A DNA stretch of 64,000 bases from an uncultured Bacteroidales bacterium. Lineage in GTDB: Bacteria > Bacteroidota > Bacteroidia > Bacteroidales > Paludibacteraceae. The stretch is taken from positions 13,723-77,722 of the forward strand of contig CADBWK010000008.1 of NCBI GenBank assembly GCA_902798385.1. Reading direction: 5' to 3'. The position numbers were made by a program, and so were the translations under genes. This document shows, piece by piece, positions 6,198-61,900 of the stretch (the stretch's first letter is position 1; the number at the start of each line of letters is the position of its first letter). The notes under the pieces are model-generated. The model was not told the DNA's origin and searched no databases. It worked only from the letters and a program-made list of their open reading frames with translations.

Positions 6198-6230
6198 AAA
6201 TTTCAAATTTCAAATCTCAAATTTCAAATT
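6198..6230. repeat. Tandem octamer array (AAATTTCA)x4 filling the rnfC-rnfD spacer
   Basis: The sequence is aaatttcaaatttcaaatctcaaatttcaaatt. Confidence 0.9.
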
Positions 6231-8563: not shown

Positions 8564-8594
8564 AATTTTCAATTTTCAATTTTCAATTTTCAAT
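8564..8594. repeat. Tandem heptamer array (AATTTTC)x4.5 between the divergent rseC and ftsK promoters
   Basis: The sequence is aaattttcaattttcaattttcaattttcaatt. Confidence 0.9.
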
Positions 8595-8611
8595 TATTTA
8601 TCGTACCTTTG
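8580..8611 (+). promoter_or_regulatory. Promoter for ftsK (-7 box TAccTTTG at 8604-8611)
   Basis: There is a perfect TAnnTTTG 20 nt upstream of the ATG at 8631. The -33 region lies inside the AATTTTC heptamer array. Confidence 0.65.
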
Positions 8612-11135: not shown

Positions 11136-11190
11136 GTCAAAAAAACGACGGTCGAACGACGGTCAAACGACGGTCAAGCGACAGTCAAAC
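11136..11190. repeat. Tandem 11-mer array (GGTCAAACGAC)x5 just after the ftsK stop
   Basis: The sequence is gtcaaaaaaacgac ggtcgaacgac ggtcaaacgac ggtcaagcgac agtcaaac. Confidence 0.9.
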
Positions 11191-11232
11191 CTAAGATGAG
11201 GCTTAGAACAGAACAATAACAAGGCAGCAAAA

Positions 11233-11802
11233 ATGACGTTTTTACTAACCATAGTAGCCATCTTGAGTTCGTTTTTGACGAACCTGGAGACGAAAACCCT
11301 TCAATCGGACTTCACCATCACGGTGGCCGAAGAAGTCAATGCGCCGATGAACTATCCCGGCTCATTAACCATGCATGGTCAGTTGTTCCGGCTCTCGATG
11401 TTTAATATCGAGGCGGCGTACGATGGCAAAACGATGTACATGTACTCGCCCGAGACCGATGAACTGACGCTGACCAACCCTACCGAACAGGAGTTGTTGG
11501 AATCCAATCCGCTGCTGTACGCCAAAGCCATCGTGCCGGTTTGTAACGTGACGGAGAGAACCATAACCGGTAACCCGTCACCCGTAACCCTTATTACCCT
11601 TACGCCAAAGGATCAATCCATCGGTATCAACCGCTTCACGCTCCGTGTGCGAAACAGCGACCTGATGCCCCTGCAGGTCGAACTCAAAGAGGGTAAGAAA
11701 AATACCACGCTGAAGTTCAAAGACCCTAAGTTTGTAAACGAGAAACAGAAATACGAGATCATCCCCGAAAAGGATACATTCATCAACGATATGCGCCTCT
11801 AG
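11233..11802 (+). CDS. lolA: LolA-like outer-membrane lipoprotein carrier family protein
   Basis: 189 aa with a hydrophobic N-terminus. It sits immediately downstream of ftsK, the classical ftsK-lolA synteny. The family call rests mainly on size and synteny. Confidence 0.55.
   Translation: MTFLLTIVAILSSFLTNLETKTLQSDFTITVAEEVNAPMNYPGSLTMHGQLFRLSMFNIEAAYDGKTMYMYSPETDELTLTNPTEQELLESNPLLYAKAIVPVCNVTERTITGNPSPVTLITLTPKDQSIGINRFTLRVRNSDLMPLQVELKEGKKNTTLKFKDPKFVNEKQKYEIIPEKDTFINDMRL
11561..11602 (+). repeat. In-frame heptamer array (CCnGTmA family) inside the lolA-like gene
   Basis: ccataaccggtaacccgtcacccgtaacccttattaccctta encodes ITGNPSPVTLITLT. Confidence 0.85.
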
Positions 11803-11836
11803 TATCCTAGTTTCCTAGTATCCTAGAGCCCTAGTA
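11799..11836. repeat. Octamer array (CCTAGTAT family) spanning the lolA-like stop and the spacer to trxB
   Basis: The sequence is ctagtatcctagtttcctagtatcctagagccctagta. Confidence 0.85.
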
Positions 11837-11848
11837 AAAAATAGAATT

Positions 11849-12829
11849 ATGAGAGTAAAATGTTTGATAATTGGCTCAGGCCCTGCCGGATATACAGCGG
11901 CTATTTACGCGAGTCGTGCTAATCTGGCGCCGGTACTGATCGAAGGTCCGCAACTTGGCGGACAGTTGACCACGACCACCGAAGTGGAGAATTTCCCCGG
12001 TTATCCGGATGGTGTCGAACCCTTCACGATGATGGACGACATGCGCCGTCAGGCCGAGCGTTTCGGTACGCAGTTTGTATCGGGTATTGTGACCAAAGTG
12101 GAGTTTGCCCCTAACCCCTCACCCCTAACCCCTCACCGGGTTTGGGTCGAAGACACAGACCTCTACGAAGCCGATGCAGTTATTATCGCCACCGGTGCCA
12201 GCGCCAAATACCTCGGTCTCGAGTCCGAGCGTACGTACCGCGGCCGCGGCGTGAGTGCGTGTGCGACCTGTGACGGTTTCTTCTACCGCAAGAAGACCGT
12301 AGCGGTTGTCGGCGGCGGTGACACGGCTTGTGAGGAAGCGAATTATTTGGCTGGATTATGCGAGAAGGTATATATGATCGTGCGCAAACCGTATCTTCGC
12401 GCATCTGCGGTGATGCAAGAGCGCGTATTGAACAATCCGAAGATCGAGGTGCTCTTTGAGCACAACACGCTGCAACTGACGGGTGAAGGTAAGGTACAAG
12501 GTGCCGATTTAATCTACCGCAAAGGCGAACCCGACGAGGAGCAACGTCATATTGCTATTGACGGTTTCTTCCTCGCCATCGGTCACCATCCGAATACCGA
12601 ACTCTTCAAGGATTACATCGCTCGTGATGCCGAGGGTTACATCATCACCCACGATAATAGCACGCAGTGCTACCAACCCGTAACCGGTAACCTGTCACCT
12701 GTAACCCCTCTCCCCGGTATTTTTGCCGCCGGTGACTGCGCCGATCCGCATTATCGTCAGGCGGTAGTAGCTGCAGGTTCCGGCGCCAAAGCCGCCATCG
12801 AGGCAGATAAGTATATCAAAAGTTTATAA
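11849..12829 (+). CDS. trxB: Thioredoxin-disulfide reductase
   Basis: 326 aa. FAD motif GSGPAGYTAA, redox-active CATC, NADPH motif GGGDTACEEA, and C-terminal FAAGDC. Confidence 0.95.
   Translation: MRVKCLIIGSGPAGYTAAIYASRANLAPVLIEGPQLGGQLTTTTEVENFPGYPDGVEPFTMMDDMRRQAERFGTQFVSGIVTKVEFAPNPSPLTPHRVWVEDTDLYEADAVIIATGASAKYLGLESERTYRGRGVSACATCDGFFYRKKTVAVVGGGDTACEEANYLAGLCEKVYMIVRKPYLRASAVMQERVLNNPKIEVLFEHNTLQLTGEGKVQGADLIYRKGEPDEEQRHIAIDGFFLAIGHHPNTELFKDYIARDAEGYIITHDNSTQCYQPVTGNLSPVTPLPGIFAAGDCADPHYRQAVVAAGSGAKAAIEADKYIKSL
12108..12137 (+). repeat. In-frame heptamer array (CCCCTAA/CCCCTCA)x4 inside trxB
   Basis: cccctaacccctcacccctaacccctcacc encodes APNPSPLTPH. Confidence 0.9.
12677..12710 (+). 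repeat. In-frame heptamer array (CCnGTmA family) inside trxB
   Basis: cccgtaaccggtaacctgtcacctgtaacccctc encodes PVTGNLSPVTPL, just before the FAAGDC motif. Confidence 0.9.
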
Positions 12830-19000: not shown

Positions 19001-21248
19001 AGAGTACAAAACGGGTACTACTAACGATGTTATGGAGCAGAAAGCCGCTACCGGTTGCAATAAATGGGGTGTCAAACCGCTCTTAAAGGGCGCTGCTGCG
19101 CACGAAGGAACAGCCGCACACGACATGCCTGGTTACCAGGTGGCGAATACTGCAGACTTTAGACTCAAACCTGGCTATTGGTATAAGTTCAAGACCGCTT
19201 TCTTCGATGTAAGTTCTACTATCAACCATGATGCCGGAGGAGATGGTACTTGTCTCGGACATGGCTATTTCATCGTAGCCGTAGCCCCGGATACCGTGCG
19301 TTGGACGCCGGCGAACCTCAGCGGTACGAACTACTGGAATGATGACTTGAACTGGACACCAGTCATGGCATCCAAACCGAGTGATGGCTTCAAAGCTATT
19401 GTGCCGATGGCTGATACGAAAGTGATCATCCCGCAGGTAGCCGAAGGACAACTGCCTGTCGTCATGGATTTGGTAGTGAATCAGAAAGACACGCTCGAAT
19501 ACGGCTACAAGCGCAATACATGTAAGGAGATACTCTTCAAGCCGAGTTCGCAGATGTTAGGTCAAGAGCGTCTGGAATACGAGAAAGCGTTCGTTGACGT
19601 GCTCTTCAAGACCGATAACTGGCAGACTTTCTCCCCGGCATTGAAGCATGTTAATTCCGGTGACCTGTACGTGCCGTTCAATGCGGCTACGTATAACAAA
19701 GCGAATCCGGCTACGGGTGCTTCTACGGATACCGTTGAGTTTGAGCCGAAGGCTTTCCCCTTAGGCATTACAAGCGGACTGACCTATAACCCGCGCTCGT
19801 ACCCATTCGCCTTCTACCAGGGCTTCTATAACTCTACCGTACGCGTAGCATTTAATAATACGGATGAGGACGGGAATCCGGTTGCTTACACCTATAGCAC
19901 CTCCAAGAACGAGGTGGATTGGGTGAAGACGAACCTGATCGATACGCTCTATCATCCGGGACAGGCCGCCGTCATCAATAGTTATGATGCGTATAATAAG
20001 GAGGGTAGGGAAATCGTTGTGTGCCTGCCGAAACCGGATAATACGTATTACACCTATGGCAAGAGTGGTGGCACCTATGCGGCCGGTCATTCCTATTCGA
20101 TGAAGAATGAGGACGGCGGTGCTCGTACGGCATCGGATCTGACGAAGAACCTGGCGTACGATAAGACGACCCTGACGAATGCTGGAGGCGAAGGCATTAC
20201 CTATACGCTGCATAACGCTACCGAATCGAAGATATTCTTCTTCGGTAACCCCACCATGGCGCTGGTCGATGTCTATCAGTTATGCGTGGATAACGCCGGC
20301 GTGCTGGAGCACGATGGTAGCGAGCATAAGTTCACAGCATACCAGTTGGCAGAAGGCTCGAGTTATACCGTCAAGCCTATCACGGCTCGCGGTCAGTATT
20401 TCATCGCGCCGCAACGTGCCGTAGGTCTGGTAGCCGATGCTGCTCATACTACATCCAAGACCCTTCCGGTTAAACTCACACCCGAAGCACTTGTAGCGCT
20501 GACAGGCGATGGTATGGTCGTTAGTCAAGAGGATATCAAGCCCATGCCGCGTCGTATGACCAATGACCAAGCGGTAAATGAGAAACGTCTCTATATCACG
20601 GCTGCTAACGAGACCGATGCCGGTATCCGAAAGGCTTATCTCACTCTGGGTGAACAAGAAGACGCTAGCCGCGGATTCCGCAAAGGCGAAGATGCGCTGT
20701 CCCTCTCGTCCGGTAAGCATTACTTCAATTATGGTGCGTTCTCGACACCGATTAGCCTATACACGATCGCTGATAACGAGGCCCTCATGATGGATATACG
20801 CGACACGCTGAACCGCGTACCGGTAGTGTTCTCGACGATTGATGCGAAGTTCGACATCAATAACTATACCCTCTTGACCTTCTCCATGACGGGCAATTGG
20901 GATAAACCGCTATACCTCTATGATGCCGTAAGTAACGACAGTGTGCTTATCCGAAATGGTCTGCAGATTGCTATCGAGACCCCGCTTAATGATCAGATTC
21001 GCTACTTCATTAACGGTTCTAAGCGCGTGACAAGTGAAGAGAACCAGCAAGGCACAGCGACGGGCATCGAGGAGGTAAATGACCAATTACCAAATACCAA
21101 TTACCAATCGGGTACCGTTATTTACGATGTACTCGGACGCAAAATTATGACACTGAACGAATATGACCTTATCTCCAATATCCATCTGCCGACAGGTGTA
21201 TATATCATACAACGCGGTAGTAATACGGAAAGGATGGTGATTAGATGA
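13062..21248 (+). CDS. Giant secreted surface protein G1 (2728 aa) with T9SS-like C-terminal tail
   Basis: Single uninterrupted ORF with signal peptide MKTNNYYIRSLFIALIATFGVSLFVLA. The C-terminus TVIYDVLGRKIMTLN...LPTGVYIIQRGSNTERMVIR resembles a Por/T9SS sorting domain. It is paralogous to G2. Confidence 0.9.
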   Translation: MKTNNYYIRSLFIALIATFGVSLFVLAEGEKSAPGGWYDDPVVSVAWKDYVTFSTVYNGKRYYLGVDTVAAKATPTPEYKIMAYNEPNYATMWIAGRLWSSTGGELTNKDYTRTIQSVWTQERLPGKDTLYLALGDPEIAGQPYNTLILSSIGTMWHTAKDIYATGRYIQGYMYFYTEESGVDKYRYLTYDPLYEFDRLFEARPSESQRISVWDRKTGDDLVFKTNPTSYTFGLKTSADTTKIRFSSQVSYYPHVDRFRSRYARVDVYTFEPTVIDNQETLLEKPYSMGGHYEWKSNPRGEGAYNGQSHMKMYLWTGEMSAGSPVMEWRDSTLLWVSDTKNQLIDNEWVDTIFVIGKSPFDRPSCRVLRKTGDGAPAEGDYLDHVDWLYVHLRINGKWYKDSIQLTRETFHVRYATTLTMDESPGGWEFPYFYDGKKADGTTPIGTEGTKDFDIKALYSVTVDTLHYNGAYETGGVLEEQTLDLTAQTPQEISSVKYNELIVNAYEPGTTTTCSWLTASTPDKKTVRLVANEYNPSATVDRIAEVHYTYRYLHSTQEGDWSEVTRIIWVSQLWKSSGVAGLYAFSHKPTAEELQEVYEKDYTIYAIPDQSLPLPLHRDHWGYYRWFIYEGDYKDRDLEHDDTWDFGLNAPTNVRNQNFMPINYATSAASRGRWDVIRDINAGNTEFEPAADKEHFEVGKRTKIPSVYYPKSITKNGKVACDVSAYYDIQTTGSSSPAYVKQNLTSLTEPTLSYRNVYNIRPAKEQADKLATYKGNGSGANWMEEHTVIVPAGREFSLQQLYPVQKGDASIDTVHLQYIYYANPTQTDAKIGTRDGLTDKQLEENDYYARIGKEKTIEEKYVLTLRTASELRGMTNGTSKTIILVNPRNNTGYILGKGARQIPVALPIPNGATTKAAFKDSLEKKLNDGGTYDSYFITIKQNKRSGDSYHNFLFGDFTLYNLYTSSAGEGEHRTQNIRWYDGWATGSEEFRIDAYPDGGSKADMPAGFSSGDLITIWTTRWGYTGYLASGQWSGGTFDYRIYRQSNNNTAYQAWLIYEVSKTTARTYNETPRWEKYNGSTSKWEEVERASDEDPDGYTMLADGSLAFDDNVHRAANETIQYRLRTEHFQLAKFTVVTRNPNSEGPRNDEAIISEEDIQSNYETLFTLGLENFPAPASDEVTAYYHKLPWNTTELSYHYPVGDEENQIPANRRVDGTSMLPMKGEYCFLNKFVDPTNPSHIISARDNYFLCIQAAEKPTTIFNFVYPGLTCSNQQVFLGFDLCNPVDNSYEPQITAELQGTKDGGSTWTAIYRFKTGEIKCNRDGNPTHDWWQTILPIDRKLVSDYDYFRCTASLTGTTESNAYILIDRMRFIERSRSFSVFQNKSTCIRDDSVYVQARIDYTADTALYKTGKLVAYQFQRWDNTANSGAGGYVPVLASKTTDGGVTYTQLTNETTPKAQIFPGYIKDAFTATESVTKTFLKSTMGNDYGYVLIPERTYNPDKSDDPSKTSTERGKLIDRALELLEITGDPAATRKAAFLNETGNVKTRDEVTSQSNIDFGTYSTPHIKSFVNEGTDLAPHWVIYLNTRLPISATDNRTFRIAMTIMNSVDDKPTFADESCATFRVINIKQAAELQVDGTTWTNHTRAEIEADDASGDALKLLEANETYRASIHLNLPSPLAGHAVLNTICKFDLMHAHDSVRDRTDDDANLAFERRYGCTRAEFSDAMETFRSNDPDNPIREQYDWRKVRPIDFAWSQADPTVLTPRARRKYDVINKLITDGVLELGLDYRDIYMGDKMDSYFYLMPVPASGWFTWDDAGPSGQDTLVHATICNDTIWLELHSKEPLAKLRFGYDSRVGDTYIVPVIRASKTDANEHLKVRISDITHTASSGAVIGWDSTYIVDSNDPDWLAGGISFRYHQDRIVQERIFDEYYKVPTSGTKEEKEADAHRYVIFRPVTSAYIDTLKMTDCPCYDYHANKTEYKTGTTNDVMEQKAATGCNKWGVKPLLKGAAAHEGTAAHDMPGYQVANTADFRLKPGYWYKFKTAFFDVSSTINHDAGGDGTCLGHGYFIVAVAPDTVRWTPANLSGTNYWNDDLNWTPVMASKPSDGFKAIVPMADTKVIIPQVAEGQLPVVMDLVVNQKDTLEYGYKRNTCKEILFKPSSQMLGQERLEYEKAFVDVLFKTDNWQTFSPALKHVNSGDLYVPFNAATYNKANPATGASTDTVEFEPKAFPLGITSGLTYNPRSYPFAFYQGFYNSTVRVAFNNTDEDGNPVAYTYSTSKNEVDWVKTNLIDTLYHPGQAAVINSYDAYNKEGREIVVCLPKPDNTYYTYGKSGGTYAAGHSYSMKNEDGGARTASDLTKNLAYDKTTLTNAGGEGITYTLHNATESKIFFFGNPTMALVDVYQLCVDNAGVLEHDGSEHKFTAYQLAEGSSYTVKPITARGQYFIAPQRAVGLVADAAHTTSKTLPVKLTPEALVALTGDGMVVSQEDIKPMPRRMTNDQAVNEKRLYITAANETDAGIRKAYLTLGEQEDASRGFRKGEDALSLSSGKHYFNYGAFSTPISLYTIADNEALMMDIRDTLNRVPVVFSTIDAKFDINNYTLLTFSMTGNWDKPLYLYDAVSNDSVLIRNGLQIAIETPLNDQIRYFINGSKRVTSEENQQGTATGIEEVNDQLPNTNYQSGTVIYDVLGRKIMTLNEYDLISNIHLPTGVYIIQRGSNTERMVIR
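21082..21109 (+). repeat. In-frame heptamer array (ACCAATT/ACCAAAT)x4 in G1
   Basis: accaattaccaaataccaattaccaatc encodes QLPNTNYQS at the start of the C-terminal tail. Confidence 0.9.
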
Positions 21249-34051: not shown

Positions 34052-36245
34052 CACACAACGGGAGGCGGTGACGTATACCGAAGGGGCATCGCTTATCGTG
34101 GCGGGTGCGGGTTCGGGCAAGACCCGCGTGCTGACCTATCGCATCGCGTACCTGCTCCAGCAAGGCGTGCCGGCGAGCCGTATCATGGCCCTCACCTTCA
34201 CCAACAAAGCTGCGCGCGAGATGAAAGAGCGTATCTGGAAGTTAGTGGGCGACGAAGCCCGCTATCTCATGATGGGTACGTTCCATCATGTATGCACGAA
34301 ACTGCTGCGACCGGAAGCGGATAAGTTGGGCTTCACGCGCGACTTCACTATCTACGATACCACCGACAGCAAATCGGTGCTCAAAGCTATCTGTAAGGAG
34401 CGCGGGTTGGACGAGAAGATATACAAACCCGGCGCCGTACAGGCGCGTATCTCTATGCTCAAGAACAGCGGCGTGAGTCCGGCGCAGTATGGCGCGAACA
34501 CACAGTTGCTGCGCGAGGATCGCGAAGCGCGGATGTACGAGATGATGACCGTTTATGAGCAGTATCAGGTGCGTCTAAGGGCAGCGAACGCGATGGATTT
34601 TGATGATTTGCTCATCAATACGCTTGTGCTCATGCGCACATTCTCCGACGTACGCGAGCGGATACAGACGCAGTTCCAATATATCTTAGTCGATGAGTAC
34701 CAGGACACGAACTATATCCAGTTCCTGCTGGTGAAGATGCTTGCCGAGCCGCAGAATAACATCTGCGTCGTGGGCGATGATGCGCAGAGTATCTACTCCT
34801 TCCGCGGAGCAGATATACGGAATATCCTCAATTTCCGCCAGCAGTATCCCGACGCCAAGCTCTTCAAGCTCGAGCGTAACTACCGCTCTACGCAGACGAT
34901 TGTCAACGCGGCTAACTCGCTCATTCATAAGAACGTTCACCAGATCGAAAAGACCGTTTATTCGGAAAAGGAGCAGGGTCAACCGCTACACTTACAGCCG
35001 TACATGGACGATCGTACGGAGGCGCTGGGCGTAGCGACCGCTATTCAGCGTCAGAAGCATAAAGGCTACGACTCATTCGCGGTGCTGTACCGCACGAATG
35101 CGCAGAGCCGTGTGATCGAAGGCGAGTTGCGCAAACTCAATATCCCGTACCGTATCTACGGCGGTACGTCTTTCTACCAGCGCAAGGAGATCAAGGATGC
35201 GCTCGGTTACTTGCGTCTGGCGGTTAACCCGCGCGATAACGAAGCGCTGCTGCGTATCGTGGGTTTCCCGGGACGCGGTATCGGCGAGACAACGATGAAG
35301 AAAGTATCGCTCAACGCCATCGAGCATCATAAACCCTACCTCGACGTCATGCGTCGGCCGGAAGAGACCGGACTCGATGTCGGCGCCGGTATCGCCAAGA
35401 AACTGCAGGCTTTTGCAGCGTATATGGACGGGCTGAGCGAGCAGAGCGAAACGATGGACGCCTATGCCTTCACGGAGATGGTACTGCGCACCTCGGGCGT
35501 GATGACGGCCTTGGCGTTGGATCGCTCCACCGAAGGCATCGACCGCGCGCAGAACGTGCAGGAGTTGCTGAACGCCATTCGAGAGTTCGTGGAGCAACGG
35601 GCGAATGAGGGTATCGACTATACGCCGATCACCGATTTCCTCTCAGAGGTCAGTCTGCAGACCGATCAGGACGAGAACCTGACGGACACCTCGGAGCGCG
35701 TGACGCTGATGACTGTTCATGCTGCGAAAGGACTCGAGTTCCCGGTGGTGTTCATCGTCGGGATGGAGGAGAACCTCTTCCCTTCGCAGTTTGCCGTCAA
35801 GCCGAACGAGATCGAAGAAGAACGACGTCTGCTGTATGTCGCCATCACGCGTGCCATGGAGCAATGCCATCTGAGTTTTGCGCGCCAGCGCTTCCGCAAC
35901 GGAACATTCAATTTCGCTTCGCCGAGCCGGTTCTTGAACGATATCGACCGGCAGTTCTTTGAACTACAGCGACCGAAGGAACCTGGTACCCCTAGGATCC
36001 CTAGTATTCCTAGTGTTCCCAAATCACCAATCACCAATCTCCAATCTCCAATCACCAATAACCAATCTCCCATCCCTTCCGTCTGGAAGGAAGGCGACCG
36101 CGTGAGTCATCGCGTGTTCGGGGTTGGCACCGTACTGCGCGTGTATCGCGATGAGGTGACGGAGAACGATAAGATAGAGATCCGCTTCGATACCCAAGGC
36201 ACGAAGACGCTGCTGCTCACGCATGCGAAGTTAGAGCGTGCGTAA
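34026..36245 (+). CDS. uvrD: ATP-dependent DNA helicase, UvrD/PcrA/Rep family
   Basis: 739 aa. Walker A AGAGSGKT and motif II VDEYQDTN are present. The C-terminal Tudor-like segment reads WKEGDRVSHRVFGVGTVLRV. Confidence 0.92.
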   Translation: MDFLDQLNNTQREAVTYTEGASLIVAGAGSGKTRVLTYRIAYLLQQGVPASRIMALTFTNKAAREMKERIWKLVGDEARYLMMGTFHHVCTKLLRPEADKLGFTRDFTIYDTTDSKSVLKAICKERGLDEKIYKPGAVQARISMLKNSGVSPAQYGANTQLLREDREARMYEMMTVYEQYQVRLRAANAMDFDDLLINTLVLMRTFSDVRERIQTQFQYILVDEYQDTNYIQFLLVKMLAEPQNNICVVGDDAQSIYSFRGADIRNILNFRQQYPDAKLFKLERNYRSTQTIVNAANSLIHKNVHQIEKTVYSEKEQGQPLHLQPYMDDRTEALGVATAIQRQKHKGYDSFAVLYRTNAQSRVIEGELRKLNIPYRIYGGTSFYQRKEIKDALGYLRLAVNPRDNEALLRIVGFPGRGIGETTMKKVSLNAIEHHKPYLDVMRRPEETGLDVGAGIAKKLQAFAAYMDGLSEQSETMDAYAFTEMVLRTSGVMTALALDRSTEGIDRAQNVQELLNAIREFVEQRANEGIDYTPITDFLSEVSLQTDQDENLTDTSERVTLMTVHAAKGLEFPVVFIVGMEENLFPSQFAVKPNEIEEERRLLYVAITRAMEQCHLSFARQRFRNGTFNFASPSRFLNDIDRQFFELQRPKEPGTPRIPSIPSVPKSPITNLQSPITNNQSPIPSVWKEGDRVSHRVFGVGTVLRVYRDEVTENDKIEIRFDTQGTKTLLLTHAKLERA
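35991..36070 (+). repeat. Composite in-frame repeat block in uvrD: CCTAG-family units followed by seven CCAATCA/CCAATCT heptamers
   Basis: cctaggatccctagtattcctagtgttcc followed by caaatcaccaatcaccaatctccaatctccaatcaccaataaccaatctcc encodes PRIPSIPSVPKSPITNLQSPITNNQSPI. Confidence 0.9.
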
Positions 36246-41000: not shown

Positions 41001-42630
41001 CTTCCATCATGCGAATCTCCGTGGAGGCCTTTACCGCCGGTAGGCGAAGCGAATCAGGCAGGTGAAGGGTGAGCGGAGAGAGTTTGAACGTGGTCTGCTG
41101 CGAATCGGAGCGCAGCGCCACATCGACCTTGTCAAACGCGATACCGGTCTTGTCAATGATCGATTGGATGGGACTGCCTTTGCGCAGGGTGATATCGGCA
41201 TTGAGAGCCGGTATCTTACGACGGATCGTATCCAGTACGGTGAGGTCAGAGAGCGTCGTGAGGGATGCTATGACGGCCGAGTCGCTCACGGTCTGAACGA
41301 GCGGTGAGATACGGTCGATGAGGGTCATGAGCGGCATCGGGGACGAGATATCCGCCTTGAGTCCCGGCATCGCGAGGTTGAGCGAAGTGACGCTGTCCGT
41401 CGAACCATCAAAACGCGTGTGAGACAGATTGAATTGGTCATAGATAGCTTGATCCAAACGCAGTTTGACATGACTCCGCATAGGGCGTTTGGGGTTGATA
41501 CCCTTACCCTTCGCTTCTATATCGCCGGCAAGCACGATGCGCGTCGAGTCCTTGAGGAACGGACTGAGGTTCACGCGGTCGATATGCACCGAGGCATCGT
41601 ATGCCTCATCGTCGATGTCGTAGGTAGCCCGCAGACTCGCTTTGCTGCCTTGGTACTCCGCATCGCCGTTGGCCTCCACCCGCATGGTCTTGAGGTTCAT
41701 TTTCGTCGCATAGAGATCGGCTTTGGCACCCATCTCATCGGAGCGTACATGCAGACCGTTACTCGTGATGAGACCGTTGTTTAAGTTCACCCGTGCGCCG
41801 CCGTAGATCGTATCCGCGGGGATACGGAGGGCGTTTAGACCGAAGGTGAACCCGCCTACGTTCAGTCGCTGTGCATCGTAGATATTAGCACCAACGTCAA
41901 CCAGCGCCTCGGTGGACAGCGAACGCGTGCGGATATCCAGATTGAGCGGCGTCATCGCGTAGTGGATATTGCGTAACTCACCATCAGGCAGGTCGAAGGT
42001 CAGCAGCAGCGGCGTGGTGTCCTTTGCCGTGGTATCCGGCGGAGTCTCGCGCAGGTCGATGAGCACATCGGCATCCTCAAGACGCAGACCATGCAGCGGA
42101 TACTTGCCTTCGGCAATGATCAACTCCGGACTCGATACATCCAATAAACCTACGATGGCATCGATGCCTACGGAGGCAATCAGACTGTCGGAGTGGAAAG
42201 TGGTTTGGTCGAGATGCAGATTCTCGACCAAAATTGGAATATTGATGATTGATGATTGGTGGTTGGTGAATTGGCTGGTCTTCGCCACCGCTTTCAGGTG
42301 TAGCGCGCGCGTGTATATTAAGGTGTCTTGTCCGCGATGACCGACGAAGAGGCTGTCGATTTGAATCTCGAGCGGCAGATCGCCTTCTCCTTTGTACGCG
42401 CGGTAGAGCACCATCGGCGAATGGTGGAAGGGCGAGAGATAGAGGTGACCCAAGTCGATGTCGTAGTCCGTCTTCTCATTGGCGATCGTGACACCTTTCT
42501 CGAGTATCGCCATACGCGCAGCGGGTGTCATCACAACACCTGCCACCGCGATCACCAGCAGCAATACCAATCCCAGCACCACGCCTATCACCGCGGTCGG
42601 AATCTTCCATATTAAGCTGCGTTTGCTCAC
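38056..42630 (-). CDS. tamB: TamB-like translocation/assembly protein fused to an Omp85/BamA-type beta-barrel C-terminus
   Basis: 1524 aa single ORF with a GTG start. It has an N-terminal TM anchor (IPTAVIGVVLGLVLLLVIAVAGVV), a long beta-rich body, and a DUF490-like segment (DETITRELAGLDEDTREGLAATLLATG). The last ~448 aa carry Omp85 hallmarks: AFYTGGPNSLRASSPY, FLDAGNVWNW, GTGAGLRLD, and a terminal GIGYPF. Confidence 0.8.
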   Translation of the reverse strand: MSKRSLIWKIPTAVIGVVLGLVLLLVIAVAGVVMTPAARMAILEKGVTIANEKTDYDIDLGHLYLSPFHHSPMVLYRAYKGEGDLPLEIQIDSLFVGHRGQDTLIYTRALHLKAVAKTSQFTNHQSSIINIPILVENLHLDQTTFHSDSLIASVGIDAIVGLLDVSSPELIIAEGKYPLHGLRLEDADVLIDLRETPPDTTAKDTTPLLLTFDLPDGELRNIHYAMTPLNLDIRTRSLSTEALVDVGANIYDAQRLNVGGFTFGLNALRIPADTIYGGARVNLNNGLITSNGLHVRSDEMGAKADLYATKMNLKTMRVEANGDAEYQGSKASLRATYDIDDEAYDASVHIDRVNLSPFLKDSTRIVLAGDIEAKGKGINPKRPMRSHVKLRLDQAIYDQFNLSHTRFDGSTDSVTSLNLAMPGLKADISSPMPLMTLIDRISPLVQTVSDSAVIASLTTLSDLTVLDTIRRKIPALNADITLRKGSPIQSIIDKTGIAFDKVDVALRSDSQQTTFKLSPLTLHLPDSLRLPAVKASTEIRMMEGYTNAMLAADTHLTDGAASFYDLCTDAAFRLDLMREGRNLYGGGKLQLDSIRYANKDLGNHSVDLQIAPSKTYANALRADVQLDDIPLELMHSFVTLPEDIGITGAVRASASIDGLPYKQDISADVQPLGVTAEYKPYEIAIGLGETPIIMRHNHVDLNGLPIYAVDSTFIALNGGLDLDRMRLDVTLAADSFAPVKLTKGGPFPVYGELATDIRGRVTGPLNAIVADVDLTLLPVTDITYPIDKKNLAQVKPHGTVNARYSTADGDLQLGGQINVDDGLVRYSPKAYPIMPFHVDSGSHIAFNGPIGQTKLAISASQQVKADVESEDEDTRRVDFRTGVRVNGVVDSIEIRSIGFFLEAPEDETITRELAGLDEDTREGLAATLLATGMYVGESNVAAQRDGYALSSIINSRINAALANSKVGKFVDIDLSSGQSDHTAGTTNDMNLSISKSFFKDKLRLTLGSTLTDNPEVNKTTGMFSNFTADYKLTKDGDVLLRLYSQRDYNNVFEGELYKTGLAVRATKDWKRKQLFRGDSINRTYGLSADAGIAYRSNNSIGPDLTLKSTIKNVLGKGESFILKGNGAYYWALRNRHPGDPKKTDTYKLGLNASLIFPYLHWVGDNNPDGDTRYMLGYQYENIAGGYGVHKLSGSFTYFIRSANNSYVTHAFTPFSLSVVLMKAETDSLLNKAAEYPQLIKVIAGNEFIPSIGYNFTYDNYRSKRAVNTFLDLGVKESGNLINALYCLFGYKWDDKDKPLGKITFNQFVKLTAELRNKFNFTDKICIATRLYAGANIPLGNSHFSPLSEAFYTGGPNSLRASSPYAYGPGNFYSAKYNQNFFHSGDVKLEANFEFRFPIVWKLFGAAFLDAGNVWNWYSTVDLFKAAGFDDYLTRLEIPETLYDGIINNPEFAKQIALGTGAGLRLDIDGLVVRLDIGVGIHAPYQTFKYDKEGKPDLTRPIKSYYNIPSALDAIRINFGIGYPF
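42231..42278 (-). repeat. In-frame heptamer array (ACCAATC/ATCAATC family) inside tamB
   Basis: The minus strand ccaattcaccaaccaccaatcatcaatcatcaatattccaat encodes QFTNHQSSIINIP. Confidence 0.85.
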
Positions 42631-43455: not shown

Positions 43456-43470
43456 AACTCTCAACTATTA

Positions 43471-43491
43471 ACTCTTCACTTTTCACTCTTC
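43471..43491. repeat. GTGAAAAG/GTGAAGAG word repeat at the antiporter stop
   Basis: The plus strand is actcttcacttttcactcttc. The same word family occurs at 55575-55606. Confidence 0.75.
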
Positions 43492-54555: not shown

Positions 54556-54608
54556 TACATCATTACATCATTACATCATTACATCATTCCATCATTCCCT
54601 TACCATTG
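54550..54608. repeat. Octamer array (minus strand TAATGATG)x5 plus variants, filling the fimbrillin-G3 spacer
   Basis: The sequence is catcattacatcattacatcattacatcattacatcattccatcattcccttaccattg. It spans from the G3 ATG-ATG to the upstream TAA. Confidence 0.92.
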
Positions 54609-55589
54609 TTCCGTAAATTTCGAGATATCTACCTTCAGCGCATATGGCGTCACCGTCAGATTATAGGTATAACTATACCCGGCTTCCCAGTTAAAATTCA
54701 CATCCGCTGTGATCGTTTGGTCCTCTACCACGCTCCAGTCATCCCACGATGCCCGTACACCCAAGGTCTTTGCACCGTAGTTATTAGGAATCACCATCAT
54801 TGCCACCGTCTGTGTGTGGAGCGTACCGACTTGCAGTGCGTCGTCGGGAACGATCTTCAGCGCATCACTTCCGCTGAGGCTACTCCACGTCATGGTGCTA
54901 CCATCATACGTACATGTTCCCGCGGTATGCAGCCCTGCAATAGCGATGCTATCCACGCTCACATGCGTACCGCTCTCGGCGGCGATCACGAACTTAACCA
55001 GCGCAAACGGGTGCTTGAACTGCATCGGCAGCGCACCGCCCGCATCTATTTGTGTCTGCAAGGTCTGACTATCGAGTACGGCAATCAGATACTCCTGCAT
55101 AGAGGCCTGCGCCGTGTTGGTCATGTAGCCGCTCATGTCGCAAGAGAAGGACGTACCTGTTGTGTGGTTATACGTTCCCGGCGTGATATATGCAGGTGTA
55201 GAAAACGGACATGCACCTACGAAGTCCAGCGTCGAAGCGATCACTTCGCCTATCTTCGAACCCTCTGCCGGCCAGTAGTAATGTTCCTGTGCAGAACCGT
55301 CCCAGAAAACCCATGCAGGGGACGGATCGTGATCCAGATCGTAATGCAGTTTTTTGCCATCGAGGAATTTGGTCTCGGTGTCGTGATAGTAGGCATCGAT
55401 CTTGAGGTCGTAACCCCGCAGTGCGGCGGTACTATCGATGGTAGTCGCACGTCGCAGCATACCACTTACGCCGGTCTTCATCGCAATCTCATGCCGTTGA
55501 ACCGGTTCGTCTTTATGGCAGCAGCATCCCGCCAGCAGCCCGGCTGCCAGCAGAATAATCATCCCTAATATAATCTTTTCACTCTTCAC
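54600..55589 (-). CDS. Fimbrillin-family (type V pilus) lipoprotein
   Basis: 329 aa from the GTG at 55589. It has a lipoprotein signal ...LLAGC and Arg residues (GMLRRATT) consistent with Arg-protease maturation. An alternative ATG start is at 55562. Confidence 0.75.
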   Translation of the reverse strand: MKSEKIILGMIILLAAGLLAGCCCHKDEPVQRHEIAMKTGVSGMLRRATTIDSTAALRGYDLKIDAYYHDTETKFLDGKKLHYDLDHDPSPAWVFWDGSAQEHYYWPAEGSKIGEVIASTLDFVGACPFSTPAYITPGTYNHTTGTSFSCDMSGYMTNTAQASMQEYLIAVLDSQTLQTQIDAGGALPMQFKHPFALVKFVIAAESGTHVSVDSIAIAGLHTAGTCTYDGSTMTWSSLSGSDALKIVPDDALQVGTLHTQTVAMMVIPNNYGAKTLGVRASWDDWSVVEDQTITADVNFNWEAGYSYTYNLTVTPYALKVDISKFTEQW

Positions 55590-55606
55590 TTTTTACTTTT
55601 CACTTT
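55575..55606. repeat. GTGAAAAG-family word repeat covering the start of the distal fimbrillin gene
   Basis: The sequence is cttttcactcttcactttttacttttcacttt. Confidence 0.8.
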
Positions 55607-58978: not shown

Positions 58979-61900
58979 TTATAGTTTTTTACCTGTAACA
59001 TCATATTTCTCGTTGTTACGAATTATTATTACGTGTTGATTCTCGATGATCTTGTACGGGCGGTTATCGTCCTTCTTGAGCACGATCGGAGCCAGTAACG
59101 AACCGTGGTGAGCGTCGGAGACGTAGTGTATAGCTACGCGTTTATTGCCTTCGGCGTTTATAGGTGTATACTCCTGACCATCGATCTCGAATCGGAGTTC
59201 TCCTATCCGATCGCTCTGGATTGTCAAGAAGTACAGCGAGTCAATCGGCTCTGCTACAGCGGCGAGCTCGTCGCCCACATAAACCTTCAATACATCATTT
59301 ACATCATTGAGCGACGCAGTCGCGCTCATTCCATCATTAATCATTGCGATCATCGTCATATTCGTTGCCGCTTGCGGATTAGTGAACGCAGATGGACTTT
59401 CGACTATGGACTTTCGACTATCGACTTTCATTTCCGGCTTAAAGAACTTCATCTCCACACTGCTCGGCGCCATGCGGCGGAAGAGGTATCCTTCGCCGGG
59501 TTGGAAAGCTGTGAGGTCACCTACCCATCGTTTGTCCTTGGAGAATGTAGCGAAGCGATTATGTGCTTTGATCATATCCCCTGCCGAAGCGTGTTGGTAA
59601 TAGTCAGAGAGCGCCTCCGTGATGGAGATGCGTTGATCGAACATACACGGCATCGGATTCCATTGACCGTCACCGCGAACGGAGATCTTCATCGAATCCT
59701 CAGAGAGGATCTCACCGGATACGCGCATTGTATTGGCATTCGCTGCATAGACCATGTAGATCTGCGAATGATGGAGGTTGGTGAGCGTTCCGGTAAAGAC
59801 ATCGTTGGTCTCGTTGTAGGTGCTGAACTGACGCGTGTTCGGGTTCTTGATCAGGTCCCCTTCGGTCCAAGGCTTGGCCGCGGACATACAGGTATTTACA
59901 TCTCCCCGCGTAGCCGTGAGATCGAGATGCGTAGAAACCCAGTTCCATCCTGCCTGCAGTTCAATCTGCTGTCGTTCGCTTCCGTTCATCGAAAGAATCA
60001 GCGGTTCATTATTGCCGCATCCATAGACGTAACCATGTGCAAACATCACATTCTCATTGGGCGTCAGACCATAGGTCTTACCGGTCGATGCCTGCCAGAG
60101 CAGGAAGCGTATCGGCTTGCTGTTCATGGCATCGTTGCCGAAGACAGTCAGGAAGACGTCAGTTGTGTTACTGATGGCATTGAACGAGATATTCGCTTGT
60201 CCCACGCACTCGTTATGATAGATTGCATAGACGATATCGCGTTCGTCCGTGTCAAAGGATACAACGCCATCATGAGTGATCTCCACTTTCGCGCAGACAG
60301 ACATATTATACGGGTACTTCCCTTCATCGAGATTGTCATACGGCGGTATTGCCTCGATGACATACTCGACCGTAAGGGGTTCGCTCAGTCCGTTCTCGTC
60401 CGTGAGATAGAGCACATCGCTGTACTCGCCTACGGCTATCTGGCTGTTGAACGTCAGACGAACGGTCTTTTCCTCCATCGGGTCGAGGGAGCCGTAGGGG
60501 GTGCTCACGCTCAGCCACGACGGCAGGGACTCGATCGTGTACGTATGACGCTTACCGCCCGTATTGATGATATCTACATTGGTCGTCAAGTCTGCATCCG
60601 CTTGGTCTTCTGTCTTGATAACTATTTTCTTGGTGGACCACTTGAGACTGTTGCGATCGACGAATGCCGTCCAGGTCACCGGCGAACTCATCGGGTTACC
60701 GTTCAGGTCCTCTACGTCACGCACCGTCACGTAGATCGACTGTTTGTTCACCTCGTAGTCGCGGTTGAGGATGTTGATCATCAACTCATCGTTGTTGAAC
60801 GCCCAGTTGAAATGGAGCTTGTTGAGCACGCCATGCGACTTGATCGGCGCATTGTCCATTGTCCATTGTCCATTGTCCAATAACAAAGGTACCACTTTGT
60901 TCACCACATTGCCGTTGGCATCCTTGAATGTACGTCGGTCATTGATGGAGAAGCGCTGCTCGATGATGCCGTTCGGGTTGGTGTACTGCTCCTCAAAGGG
61001 CAGGTACGCGAACAGACCCATCTCATCGCCCGTGAGGGCATTGTTCTCATACAACTCAACCAGCGATTCGGGCAAAGCCTGCTCGAAGATAACGAACTCA
61101 TCGATATTACCCTTGAAGCCGTTTCCGCCGAGGTACATCGTTCCGACGAGCCCGCCTACTTGGGTCGCATCGTAGGTCTGAACCATCTTGCCGTCGAGGA
61201 AGAGTGCGGCGTTGTTATAGGTACGGCTGACGGTGAGTACCATATGATGCCAGTTGCCGTCAGCATAGCCGTCCGGCACGTTCAGTTGGAGGTCGTTCGA
61301 GTGGAAGAGTGTACCGCCTTTCTCAGCCTTGAACCACAGCATCATCGTCAGGTCATATATTTTCGAGCGGCCGAGTAGGTTACCGTTCAGTTGGACGGGT
61401 TCGCCATCCAGTTTGAGCGAATAACCTTTCTGTTTGTTCCAACTGCAGCCGTCCAGATAGAGCGTTGCGCCGTGCGCCTGGTCGGTGACGGTCTCGCCCT
61501 TACCTTCGTTCATCTGGTAGTATGCAAGCAGCTCACGCTCGTAGCCTGTGAGCGTACGGTTGGCGGTGGCACTGATCTCTTCGAGCGTCAGGGCTTTCGT
61601 CCAAACACGCGCCTCGAGCATATCGCCGTCGTAGGTAGTACCAAATTGGAAGTAGGCACTGCGTTCCGTAGCCTCATCTGTATTCGTGGAGCTGCCGAGA
61701 TTAGCGGATGTCACTTCTTCCGTACCTACAAAGAACCGAGTCCTACCTGTTTTCTCTGAAACACATACTACGCGCGTGAAAGCACGGAGGTCGTCGAGTT
61801 TCTTGGACGAACTAGCCAGGAAGTTCTTGCCGTTTGTTTTAACCAGACGCAGTATATTATCTTTGGTCAGGATGAGCTGTTTGTTCACTTGTGCATCGCC

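What the first reader, a model, noticed from the sequence alone, without database searches (positions are those of the whole stretch)
11561..12710. Heptamer word-repeat arrays inserted in frame into conserved housekeeping genes (trxB twice, lolA-like)
Three arrays of the same 7-nt family CCnnTnA (units CCGGTAA, CCCGTCA, CCTGTCA, CCCCTAA, CCCCTCA) sit inside two adjacent genes. They are 11561-11602 (ITGNPSPVTLITLT), 12108-12137 (APNPSPLTPH) and 12677-12710 (PVTGNLSPVTPL). Compared with E. coli TrxB as I remember it, both trxB sites fall in surface loops. One is before the IIATGA strand and the other before the FAAGD motif, and each adds roughly 6-8 residues. A second heptamer family (ACCAAT-type) occurs in frame in G1 (21082-21109), uvrD (36020-36070) and tamB (42231-42278). 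Further families occur in G4. A 7-nt period inside ORFs means that any single-unit slippage frameshifts an essential gene. Persistence of the arrays therefore implies either an active insertion or expansion process or unusual stability. The pattern resembles cyanobacterial STRR heptamers and the in-frame Rickettsia palindromic elements. I am not aware of a description for Bacteroidales.
Basis: partly seen in the sequence, partly recalled or inferred. Interest (0 to 1): 0.65.

Follow-up and report, generated by a model that had tools for sequence, protein, structure and literature searches.

The report
In-frame heptamer repeat arrays, rumen Bacteroidales
Short runs of a repeated 7-base word really are inserted in frame into surface loops of thioredoxin reductase and neighbouring genes of this uncultured rumen bacterium. 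They belong to the known but mechanistically unexplained heptamer simple-sequence repeats of bacteria, here unusually dense, copied between sites and highly variable between strains.

Summary
Three CCnnTnA heptamer arrays lie in frame in a LolA-like gene and twice in trxB. The window holds 12 period-7 arrays against 0.1 expected; no other period comes close. Relatives at 65-88% identity have short, non-repetitive loops at these sites, so the arrays are derived insertions. A confident AlphaFold model places both TrxB sites in loops.

Among 120 close TrxB homologues each site carries at least a dozen alleles: other heptamer families, a GC-rich palindromic element, or nothing. Some alleles differ by exactly 7 residues (three units), the only frame-preserving slippage step. 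A 26-nt module with the same order of unit variants sits at all three sites, so arrays are also copied between sites.

Across 1.9 Mb of Bacteroidales loci the arrays are about 15 times denser between genes than within them. The median array has about 4.6 units. One strand is G-poor, and each unit usually ends T(C/A)A.

Best reading: heptanucleotide simple-sequence repeats (STRR/LSSR class) arise by duplication, slippage and local copying, and selection leaves them only in spacers and permissive loops. This is a new variant of a known kind. A dedicated insertion mechanism is not excluded.

The parts
11233..11802 (+). LolA-like gene (189 aa) carrying array 1
   Evidence: ORF. Pfam LolA 22.5 bits, below the cut-off. 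Orthologues aligned.
11564..11590 (+). Heptamer array 1 (ATAA CCGGTAA CCCGTCA CCCGTAA CC), encoding ITGNPSPVT in a beta-hairpin-like loop. It contains the 26-nt module at 11564-11589.
   Evidence: The ancestral loop ..QDGKQT.. is non-repetitive and 2 aa shorter. L084 has CCAATCA units at the same site with the same length.
11849..12829 (+). trxB, thioredoxin-disulfide reductase (326 aa)
   Evidence: Pfam Pyr_redox_2 4e-42. PDB thioredoxin reductases score to 1.8e-84. AF2 model has mean pLDDT 89.9.
12108..12137 (+). Heptamer array 2 (TrxB site 1): CCCCTAA CCCCTCA CCCCTAA CCCCTCA CC, encoding APNPSPLTPH
   Evidence: It lies between strands 81-85 and 96-100 of the model. The ancestral state is DFSVSP, 18 nt. 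In L161, 97% identical, it is replaced by a GC-rich palindromic element.
12675..12706 (+). Heptamer array 3 (TrxB site 2): CCCGTAA CCGGTAA CCTGTCA CCTGTAA CC, encoding PVTGNLSPVT. The 26-nt module is at 12681-12706.
   Evidence: It lies between strands 273-275 and 287-293. Residues 281-283 are the only segment with pLDDT <50. The ancestral state is IVDGDSPRTNVP.
21078..21108 (+). CCAATnA-family array in frame near the C-terminus of the 2728-aa protein (NDQLPNTNYQS)
36022..36066 (+). CCAATCA-family array (6.6 copies) in frame in UvrD, in the linker between the helicase core (ends about residue 620) and the Tudor domain (690-734)
42241..42268 (-). CCAATCA/TCAATCA array in frame near the N-terminus (residues 121-130) of the 1524-aa protein
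   Evidence: No Pfam family at E<=1e-5.
59395..59426 (-). 7/14-nt array in frame in the 1624-aa LamG-domain protein
60850..60879 (-). Perfect (CATTGTC)x4.3 array in frame in the same LamG protein. A strain in run X5 carries a different heptamer family at this spot.
6198..6230 (.). Intergenic heptamer array (AATTTCA type) filling the spacer between two rnf genes
   Evidence: Gene calls of the syntenic L161. Same length in L161.
8564..8595 (.). Perfect intergenic (AATTTTC)x4.6 array between the divergent rseC-rnf and ftsK genes
43456..43491 (.). Intergenic or junction heptamer array (ACTCTTC type)
55578..55606 (.). Intergenic heptamer array (CTTTTCA type)

Best explanation
The three arrays are members of a genome-wide population of heptanucleotide simple-sequence repeats (the LSSR/STRR class). 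The DNA of this rumen Bacteroidales lineage generates them at a high rate. Shown: the arrays are derived, in-frame additions to short ancestral loops of TrxB and the LolA-like protein. Shown: the same loops in close relatives carry other heptamer families, a GC-rich palindromic element, or nothing. Shown: arrays are about 15 times denser in spacers than in genes. Inferred mechanism, in four steps. (1) Arrays are born in situ by tandem duplication of a local 7-nt word, through replication slippage or flap re-ligation. (2) They then grow, shrink and homogenise by slippage. Inside genes only changes that keep the frame survive, namely three units (21 nt, 7 aa) or a unit change plus a compensating indel. 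In-frame TAA must also be changed, here to TCA. (3) Whole modules of about 26-30 nt are copied to other permissive sites nearby and elsewhere in the genome, by template switching or microhomology-driven conversion. (4) Ordinary homologous recombination between strains shuffles the resulting loop alleles. Selection removes arrays everywhere except spacers, linkers and surface loops, where the encoded P/T/N/S/Q-rich peptides do little harm. The arrays in TrxB therefore need no protein-level function.
For: Over-representation and specificity of period 7: 12 arrays against 0.1 expected in the window, and about 150 period-7 arrays scoring >=12 in 1.94 Mb against 1-36 for other periods. Derived state: ancestral DFSVSP, IVDGDSPRTNVP and ..DGKQT.. 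in 20 or more relatives. Loops: AF2 pLDDT 89.9, with both sites between strands and the only pLDDT<50 segment inside array 3; gaps against solved TrxRs at both sites; the UvrD array lies in an inter-domain linker. In situ birth: L001 site 1 is three copies of the native xGTCAGC, and L081 site 1 repeats GAATTCA built from the conserved E-F codons. Three-unit slippage: pairs of homologues differ by exactly 7 aa, for example AVTGNPSPVT against AVTGNPSPVTGNPSPVT, and CNPSPVT x1 against x2. Concerted change: at the LolA site the window and L084 have the same length, but CG>AA has changed in three successive units. Copying: the module TAACCGGTAACCnnTCACCnGTAACC, with the same variant order, is found at the LolA loop, TrxB site 1 (L164, L163) and TrxB site 2. 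Units within a locus are more alike than between loci (33% against 9% within one mismatch, permutation p<0.0005). Families at site 1 and site 2 are associated within a protein (odds ratios 12-20, p 1e-5 to 6e-7). Selection filter: density ratio 14.8 between spacers and ORFs, and TCA units are sense 29:2 in ORFs. Recombination: site 1 and site 2 alleles occur in many combinations, and divergence between the window and L161 spikes only around replaced arrays. Independent assemblies and contigs from several metagenomes carry the same arrays. Literature: heptamers are the commonest long SSR class in prokaryotes, with a polymerase-slippage proposal (Mrazek 2007 as summarised in PMC4679880 and PMC4692102).
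Against: Several features are not what simple slippage predicts. Copy number is identical across about 3% divergence at four arrays, while other arrays are replaced wholesale. Array length is centred on about 4.6 units, with an excess of perfect 30-32-nt arrays rather than a decaying distribution. Units share a strand-asymmetric signature ([A/C][C/T]NN-T-[C/A]-A; G only 5.9% on that strand) beyond what composition explains. Net length gains (+6, +15, +36 nt) are not multiples of 7 or 21. Array density appears about 10 times higher in herbivore-gut Bacteroidales of several families than in named human-gut taxa (small, title-based sample), which hints at a transmissible or ecological factor. No enzyme or step of the copying process was observed. 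The site 1/site 2 association is not corrected for shared ancestry. Gene calls used for the pooled statistics are crude (longest-ORF heuristic). The whole genome could not be scanned.
Confidence: 0.6

Rival explanations
1. Classical simple-sequence-repeat behaviour only. Every array arose independently in situ by polymerase slippage on a chance local repeat, and nothing is copied between sites. Shared unit families reflect which heptamers slip best and which are tolerated when translated.
For: L001 and L081 site 1 arrays are built from native flanking sequence. Homologues show 7-aa (three-unit) length steps. The polymerase-slippage proposal for heptamers is in the literature (PMC4692102, PMC4679880).
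Against: The same 26-nt module, with the same order of unit variants including a non-obligatory CCGG unit, is at three unrelated sites. L163 site 1 is a composite in which the genome's dominant CCAATnA family follows three PVT-type units. Units cluster by genome. Same-family inverted pairs occur in spacers.
Confidence: 0.15
2. Ultra-small mobile elements with a trans-acting machinery. Modules of about 30 nt, together with the co-occurring GC-rich palindromic element, are written or transposed into DNA by an enzyme that is patchily distributed and horizontally spread among rumen Bacteroidales. Candidates include an HUH/RAYT-type transposase, a reverse transcriptase, or a factor linked to PF05635 (23S rRNA IVS protein / Avd-like) genes.
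For: Preferred module size of about 4.6 units in both ORFs and spacers. Shared T(C/A)A strand-asymmetric signature across genera. Genome-specific families. The same module at three sites. The AGGGAGGG-N6-GGTAGGCTTCC element is conserved across genera at unrelated genes and is interchangeable with a heptamer array at TrxB site 1. About 10-fold higher density in herbivore-gut lineages of several families. Two PF05635 genes are flanked by inverted heptamer arrays.
Against: No candidate enzyme was identified. There are no defined termini or target-site duplications. Many different unit families coexist in one genome, which argues against a single template. Some arrays are clearly made from native local sequence. 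The 'inverted arms' around PF05635 genes fit the general rule that arrays after stops and before starts have opposite orientation. Only two PF05635 genes were found in 1.9 Mb and none in the window.
Confidence: 0.13
3. Selected function. The arrays are cis-acting RNA or DNA signals, for example unstructured G-poor ribosome or S1/CSP loading sites in Shine-Dalgarno-poor Bacteroidales. The in-ORF copies act as translational pause sites, internal entry sites or adaptive variable loops.
For: Arrays within 60 nt upstream of starts have the G-poor strand as sense 29:13. Arrays just after stops are antisense 30:13. Many abut start codons. A similar proposal exists for TAACTGA repeats (PMC4679880).
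Against: This concerns intergenic arrays. For the in-frame TrxB, LolA-like and UvrD arrays no such role is indicated. Presence or absence and family vary freely among near-identical enzymes. Purity and copy number are the same in ORFs and spacers. TrxB is cytoplasmic, so diversifying selection on its loops is hard to motivate.
Confidence: 0.08
4. Assembly or sequencing artefact.
For: Repeat k-mers do cause contig collisions: Logan contigs join array to array (12109>12677, 12109>11564), and depth spikes at arrays.
Against: Identical arrays occur in independent assemblies (L161, L162, L164). They also occur in contigs of several runs spanning them with 0 differences. The arrays are shorter than a read and keep long ORFs open.
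Confidence: 0.01

Closest known systems
Heptanucleotide long simple-sequence repeats (LSSRs) of prokaryotes (Mrazek, Guo & Shah 2007, as summarised in PMC4679880 and PMC4692102)
   Same: Tandem 7-nt units. Period 7 is specifically over-represented among 5-11-nt periods. Phyletic distribution is patchy. The arrays are mostly intergenic. The origin of the 7-nt preference is unexplained (polymerase-slippage proposal).
   Different: Here the host is an uncultured rumen Bacteroidales. A large share of arrays in this window (8 of 12) is translated in frame, inside core enzymes. Modules are copied between sites, and each loop has a dozen or more alleles among close strains.
GGGAATC repeats of Xanthomonas and GGGGA(C/T)T repeats of Nostoc (Rehm et al. 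2015, PMC4692102)
   Same: Dispersed heptamer arrays. 89-93% are intergenic and lie close to ORF ends. There is a clear preference for about four units. Inverted pairs occur. Sequence and length vary between close relatives while the location is conserved.
   Different: Those units are G-rich and form quadruplexes, which the authors use to explain the four-unit preference. The arrays here are not G4-forming yet show the same size preference. Those genomes have one dominant unit; here many families coexist.
TAACTGA direct repeats of marine Beggiatoaceae, some cyanobacteria and five Bacteroidetes including Paludibacter propionicigenes (MacGregor 2015, PMC4679880)
   Same: Heptamer direct repeats, mostly just upstream of start codons. 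Some lie in ORFs, but only in the stop-free orientation and at tolerant positions. Horizontal spread is suspected. Written as CTGATAA, the unit fits the [A/C][C/T]NN-T-[C/A]-A logo found here.
   Different: No TAACTGA array is present in the window. The in-ORF cases there are at protein termini or in hypothetical proteins, not in internal loops of TrxB-type enzymes.
Cyanobacterial STRR sequences (short tandemly repeated repetitive heptamers; Calothrix/Nostoc)
   Same: Dispersed tandem heptamers with several families per genome. They are used as strain fingerprints because they vary (PMC5088731 for the fingerprinting use).
   Different: Different phylum and different unit sequences. The unit sequences are recalled from memory and were not checked in a paper here. 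In-frame occupation of housekeeping loops is not a described feature.
Rickettsia palindromic elements (RPE)
   Same: Selfish DNA tolerated in frame inside conserved genes, at surface positions.
   Different: RPEs are 100-150-bp palindromic elements. The arrays here are about 30-nt direct repeats with no fold. Only the separate GC-rich element seen in relatives is palindrome-like.
Phase-variable contingency SSRs (Haemophilus, Neisseria)
   Same: The unit length is not a multiple of three and lies inside ORFs, so a one-unit slip would frameshift.
   Different: The host genes are essential cytoplasmic enzymes. Copy number is fixed among strains of the species. The arrays are short and interrupted. 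Only the perfect array in the LamG surface protein (60850-60879) is a conceivable switch.

Membership tests
Heptanucleotide LSSR / STRR-type simple-sequence repeats | Head-to-tail tandem copies (3 or more) of a 7-nt unit | tested here: met
   TRF gives 3.9, 4.3 and 4.6 copies at 84-86% matches; own periodicity scan.
Heptanucleotide LSSR / STRR-type simple-sequence repeats | Period 7 in excess over chance and over neighbouring periods across the genome | tested here: inconclusive
   Met for the 64-kb window (12 against 0.1) and for 1.94 Mb of related loci.
Heptanucleotide LSSR / STRR-type simple-sequence repeats | Predominantly intergenic location, often next to ORF ends | tested here: met
   Pooled loci: 77 of 126 arrays lie in about 10% of the DNA, a density ratio of 14.8. 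In this window only 4 of 12 are intergenic.
Heptanucleotide LSSR / STRR-type simple-sequence repeats | Copy-number variation between related strains (slippage) | tested here: met
   7-aa (three-unit) steps among TrxB homologues. However, no variation was seen between the window and the 97%-identical L161 or metagenome contigs.
TAACTGA repeats (MacGregor 2015) | Unit sequence TAACTGA | tested here: not met
   No match to two units with up to 2 mismatches in the window.
Rickettsia palindromic elements / REP-type elements | Palindromic sequence able to form a stable hairpin | tested here: not met
   Folding energies of the four arrays equal those of shuffles (z -0.66 to 0.06; the UvrD array has 0 kcal/mol).
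Rickettsia palindromic elements / REP-type elements | Dispersed copies of one conserved element of about 100-150 bp | tested here: not met
   The arrays are 27-45 nt long. Only a 26-nt module is shared by three sites.
Phase-variable contingency locus | Repeat-number polymorphism within populations that switches the reading frame on and off | tested here: not met
   No indels at the three arrays in contigs of four metagenomes or in L161/L164. Raw reads were not available, so rare variants cannot be excluded.
MITE / transposon footprint | Terminal inverted repeats and target-site duplication with defined ends | tested here: not met
   Filled-against-empty comparisons show arrays overwriting loop codons without defined termini or duplications.

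The most novel reading that the evidence does not exclude
Rumen and herbivore-gut Bacteroidales of several families may share an undescribed, horizontally spread process. It would write or copy about 30-nt heptamer modules, and a small GC-rich palindromic element, into DNA wherever they are tolerated. The same process could underlie the long-unexplained heptamer repeats of cyanobacteria, Xanthomonas and Beggiatoaceae, which share the four-to-five-unit size, placement next to ORF ends and inverted pairs. The TrxB loops would then be recurrent landing sites recording that activity.
Probability: 0.13. Interest if true: 0.85.

Novelty: new variant of a known kind. Interest (0 to 1): 0.52.

Why it matters
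Bacterial heptamer repeats were reported for Calothrix before 2007 and shown to be the commonest long SSR class in 2007, and no mechanism has been established. This lineage offers four things for working on that question.

- It shows repeated, datable births and replacements at the same 18-nt loop of a conserved enzyme.
- It gives evidence that whole modules are copied between sites.
- It shows the size preference of about 4.6 units without G-quadruplex potential, so the G4 explanation is not needed to account for that preference here.
- It shows a possible ecological pattern (herbivore gut against human gut) that could point to a causal factor.

Practically, these arrays account for most protein-length differences between close strains here. 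They create new loop sequence in essential proteins. They would make fine-scale strain markers. They also cause k-mer collisions that mis-join metagenome contigs.

Tried and rejected
- **Whole-genome scan:** There is therefore no genome-wide count and no test of gene content against array density.
- **Read-level copy-number polymorphism:** only Logan contigs were served. They show presence and strain alleles but not rare slippage variants.
- **First AlphaFold job:** run on 39 near-identical homologues, it gave pLDDT 57.5 and was discarded. The second job, on 110 diverse sequences, gave 89.9.
- **RPE or hairpin nature of the arrays:** rejected by folding. As DNA, the L161 'hairpin' element is also no more stable than shuffles (z -0.35), so I call it only a GC-rich palindrome-like element.
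- **TAACTGA membership:** rejected.
- **PF05635 (IVS protein / Avd-like) genes as the source of the arrays:** only two were found in 1.9 Mb and none in the window. Their inverted flanks fit the general orientation rule. Kept only as a lead.
- **The T(C/A)A signature as an effect of coding constraint:** rejected, because 74 of 77 intergenic arrays have it. Base composition explains part of it.
- **Selection for interrupted arrays in ORFs:** rejected, because purity and copy number are the same in ORFs and spacers.
- **A universal cross-phylum signature:** not claimed, because Xanthomonas GGGAATC and Nostoc GGGGAYT lack T(C/A)A.
Full report
**Observation**

The window sequence, the ORF list and Tandem Repeats Finder confirm three period-7 arrays.
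- 11564-11590 lies in ORF 11233-11802. This ORF has only a weak LolA match, below Pfam's threshold.
- 12108-12137 and 12675-12706 lie in ORF 11849-12829. This is a clear thioredoxin reductase: Pyr_redox_2 at 4e-42 and solved TrxRs down to 1.8e-84.

All three are in frame and encode ITGNPSPVT, APNPSPLTPH and PVTGNLSPVT.

A simple periodicity scan finds 12 period-7 arrays in the 64 kb against 0.1 in codon-shuffled controls. Periods 4-13 give 0-3. Eight arrays are inside long ORFs:
- the LolA-like gene;
- TrxB, twice;
- the 2728-aa protein;
- the UvrD linker between the helicase core and the Tudor domain;
- the 1524-aa protein;
- the 1624-aa LamG protein, twice.

Four are in spacers. Arrays of 8, 9 and 11 nt also occur.

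**Organism and relatives**

The closest genomes are uncultured rumen and herbivore-gut Bacteroidales MAGs (RUG10750, UBA2800, RUG225), followed by Paludibacteraceae. Runs holding the sequence are bovine and goat gut metagenomes. L161 and L162 are syntenic and about 97% identical in DNA. L164 and L163 are more distant members of the same group.

**The arrays are derived insertions in loops**

In more than 20 relatives at 65-88% protein identity, TrxB site 1 reads DFSVSP (18 nt) and site 2 reads IVDGDSPRTNVP (36 nt), both in non-repetitive DNA. The window has +15 and +36 nt. The LolA-like loop is ..DGKQT.. in relatives and is 2 residues longer in the window.

A confident AlphaFold model (110-sequence alignment, mean pLDDT 89.9) places site 1 between strands 81-85 and 96-100, and site 2 between strands 273-275 and 287-293. 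The only segment below pLDDT 50 is residues 281-283, inside array 3. Alignments to solved TrxRs show gaps at both places.

**Hypervariable loop alleles**

Among 120 TrxB homologues at 83-95% identity (314-355 aa), nearly all length variation falls at these two sites. Each site has at least a dozen alleles.
- Site 2 alleles include PVTGNPSPVT, PITDNRSPLT, SPITNNQSPI.., MVNGKCSNGKL, KCENAQMGKCENEKM, RLTTNDERLIL, LPFREGQGVG/PSLEGRAGERL, ANSQQLIAN, or no insert.
- At the DNA level these are different heptamer families at the same spot: CAGCAAT in L081, CAACTGT in L082/83, CCAATnA in L163.
- Site 1 and site 2 alleles occur in many combinations on a poorly resolved backbone tree, which indicates recombination among strains.

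**How the arrays change**

(a) Birth in situ. L001 site 1 is a triplication of the native xGTCAGC. L081 site 1 repeats GAATTCA, built from the conserved Glu-Phe codons.

(b) Slippage in frame-preserving steps. Several homologue pairs differ by exactly 7 residues, which is three units.

(c) Concerted change. At the LolA site the window and L084 have equal length, but the same CG>AA change appears in three successive units.

(d) Copying between sites. The 26-nt module TAACCGGTAACCnnTCACCnGTAACC is found at the LolA loop, at TrxB site 1 (L164; partly L163) and at TrxB site 2. In each case the order of unit variants is the same, including a CCGG unit that coding does not require. Three further results fit this.
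- L163 site 1 is a composite in which that genome's dominant CCAATnA units follow three PVT-type units.
- Units within a locus are more alike than between loci: 33% against 9% of pairs are within one mismatch (permutation p<0.0005).
- The families at site 1 and site 2 of one protein are associated (odds ratios 12-20). This test is not corrected for shared ancestry.

(e) Stability over short times. Between the window and L161 there are 340 substitutions but only 5 indel events in 9.3 kb. Arrays at 6198, 8564, 11564 and 12675 have identical length. TrxB site 1 and the ftsK-lolA spacer array are replaced wholesale, with divergence spiking only around them. Contigs from four metagenomes span the three arrays without indels. 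In run X5 the perfect array at 60850 is replaced by another heptamer family in an otherwise roughly 99% identical strain.

**General properties across 1.94 Mb of Bacteroidales trxB neighbourhoods (164 loci)**

- 126 arrays score >=12. Of these, 77 lie in the roughly 10% of DNA that is intergenic, a density ratio of 14.8 (gene calls by a crude longest-ORF rule).
- Median size is 4.57 units in both ORFs and spacers, with equal purity. Perfect 30-32-nt arrays are in excess.
- 118 of 126 units contain TCA or TAA, against 38% of random heptamers and 51% of intergenic heptamers. The excess persists against letter-permuted units: ORF arrays 44 observed against 27.6 expected, spacer arrays 74 against 61.1.
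- An alignment of units gives [A/C][C/T]NN-T-[C/A]-A, with only 5.9% G on that strand.
- In ORFs, TCA units are sense 29:2, as stop avoidance demands. In the window arrays, the unit whose TAA would be in frame is TCA instead.
- Upstream of starts the G-poor strand is sense 29:13. Just after stops it is antisense 30:13.
- Same-family inverted pairs occur in spacers.
- Density is patchy. It is high in the window lineage and several rumen Prevotella (L030 has 11 arrays in 21 kb). It is zero in the B. thetaiotaomicron, P. vulgatus and Odoribacter loci.
- By record title, density is about 9.5 per 100 kb in herbivore-gut loci and about 1.0 in named human or other-gut taxa (small sample).

**Comparison with the literature**

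- Heptamers are the most abundant long-SSR class in prokaryotes, and a polymerase-slippage explanation has been proposed (Mrazek 2007, as summarised in PMC4679880 and PMC4692102).
- Xanthomonas GGGAATC and Nostoc GGGGAYT arrays are 89-93% intergenic, sit close to ORF ends, prefer four units and vary between close relatives (PMC4692102).
- TAACTGA repeats occur in Beggiatoaceae, cyanobacteria and five Bacteroidetes including Paludibacter. In-ORF copies are found only in the stop-free orientation at tolerant positions (PMC4679880).
- The present case is the same kind of thing. I found no paper describing it for rumen Bacteroidales or Prevotella, or for internal loops of core enzymes.
- The arrays are not RPE-like, since they do not fold, and they are not TAACTGA.
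- The four-to-five-unit preference appears here without any G-quadruplex potential. That bears on the explanation given for Xanthomonas.

**Interpretation**

The most economical account is a high rate of 7-nt tandem duplication and slippage, plus short-range copying of array modules. Selection filters the products so that they persist only in spacers, linkers and surface loops. Inside genes they persist only in the stop-free orientation and in frame.

One-unit slips in trxB are simply purged, and the surviving changes are three-unit steps and whole-allele replacements spread by recombination.

Some things remain unexplained: the 7-nt period itself, the size preference, the T(C/A)A and G-poor signature, the genome-specific families and the apparent habitat pattern. 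These leave room (about 13%) for a dedicated, possibly transmissible mechanism.

**Limits**

- No raw reads were available.
- The pooled statistics rest on trxB neighbourhoods and heuristic gene calls.
- STRR unit sequences are from memory.
- Earlier notes of this scan report the same phenomenon in other rumen Bacteroidales windows. I treated them as leads only.

Noticed in passing
L161:8205-8265 (TrxB site 1); also L163:6847-6871 (-), L015:13526-13550: A GC-rich palindrome-like element (..CCTTCCCTTCAGGGAGGG-N6-GGTAGGCTTCC) replaces the window's heptamer array at TrxB site 1 in the 97%-identical L161, where it encodes LPSLQGGTEGRLP. It recurs in FtsK of L163 and in an ORF of a Prevotellaceae MAG. 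Peptides of this family (PSLxGG.., LPFREG.., PSLEGRxGERL) occupy site 1 and/or site 2 in many TrxB homologues. It is absent from the window.
   Followed up: partly
L163:9597-10040 and L027:2640-3255: A small AT-rich PF05635 gene (23S rRNA IVS protein / Avd-like four-helix bundle) is inserted between lolA and trxB in L163. It is flanked by inverted CCAATnA-family heptamer arrays. A second such gene in a Prevotella MAG has a G-rich-orientation array upstream and a G-poor array downstream. This may simply follow the general orientation rule for arrays after stops and before starts.
   Followed up: partly
window 11143-11190: An 11-nt array (AAACGACGGTC x4.4) sits directly after the ftsK stop. In L161 the whole ftsK-end / spacer / lolA-start segment (about 11000-11300) is replaced by different repeat sequence, while the flanks stay about 97% identical.
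   Followed up: partly
window 11799-11836 and 35991-36019: CTAGTATC-type 8/16-nt array in the lolA-trxB spacer, overlapping the lolA stop. A related 9-nt CCTAGTATT array lies in frame in UvrD (IPSIPSVP), directly before the CCAATCA array.
   Followed up: no
window 54550-54596: Nearly perfect 8-nt array (CATCATTA x5.9) at the start of the 3234-aa giant gene.
   Followed up: no
window 60850-60879: Perfect (CATTGTC)x4.3 array in frame in a LamG-domain giant protein, the one array here that could act as a frameshift switch. In run X5 an otherwise roughly 99% identical strain has a different heptamer family (CATTTAC/CATTTGG) at this spot. Contig depth spikes at the array because the same words occur in other genomic contexts in the metagenome.
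   Followed up: partly
window 12109/12677/11564 (Logan contigs of runs X1, X5): Contigs join one heptamer array to another (12109>12677, 12707>12143, 12109>11564). These are most likely k-mer collisions in assembly, and they are a practical hazard of these repeats for metagenome assembly. A real recombinant deleting 567 nt in frame cannot be excluded from contigs alone.
   Followed up: no
The giant proteins are each followed by an ORF of about 144 aa, and the arrangement is conserved in L161 and L163.
   Followed up: no
L001-L080: Heptamer arrays are about 10 times denser in trxB neighbourhoods of herbivore-gut Bacteroidales MAGs (several families) than in named human or other-gut taxa. The classification is by record title and the sample is small.
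   Followed up: partly
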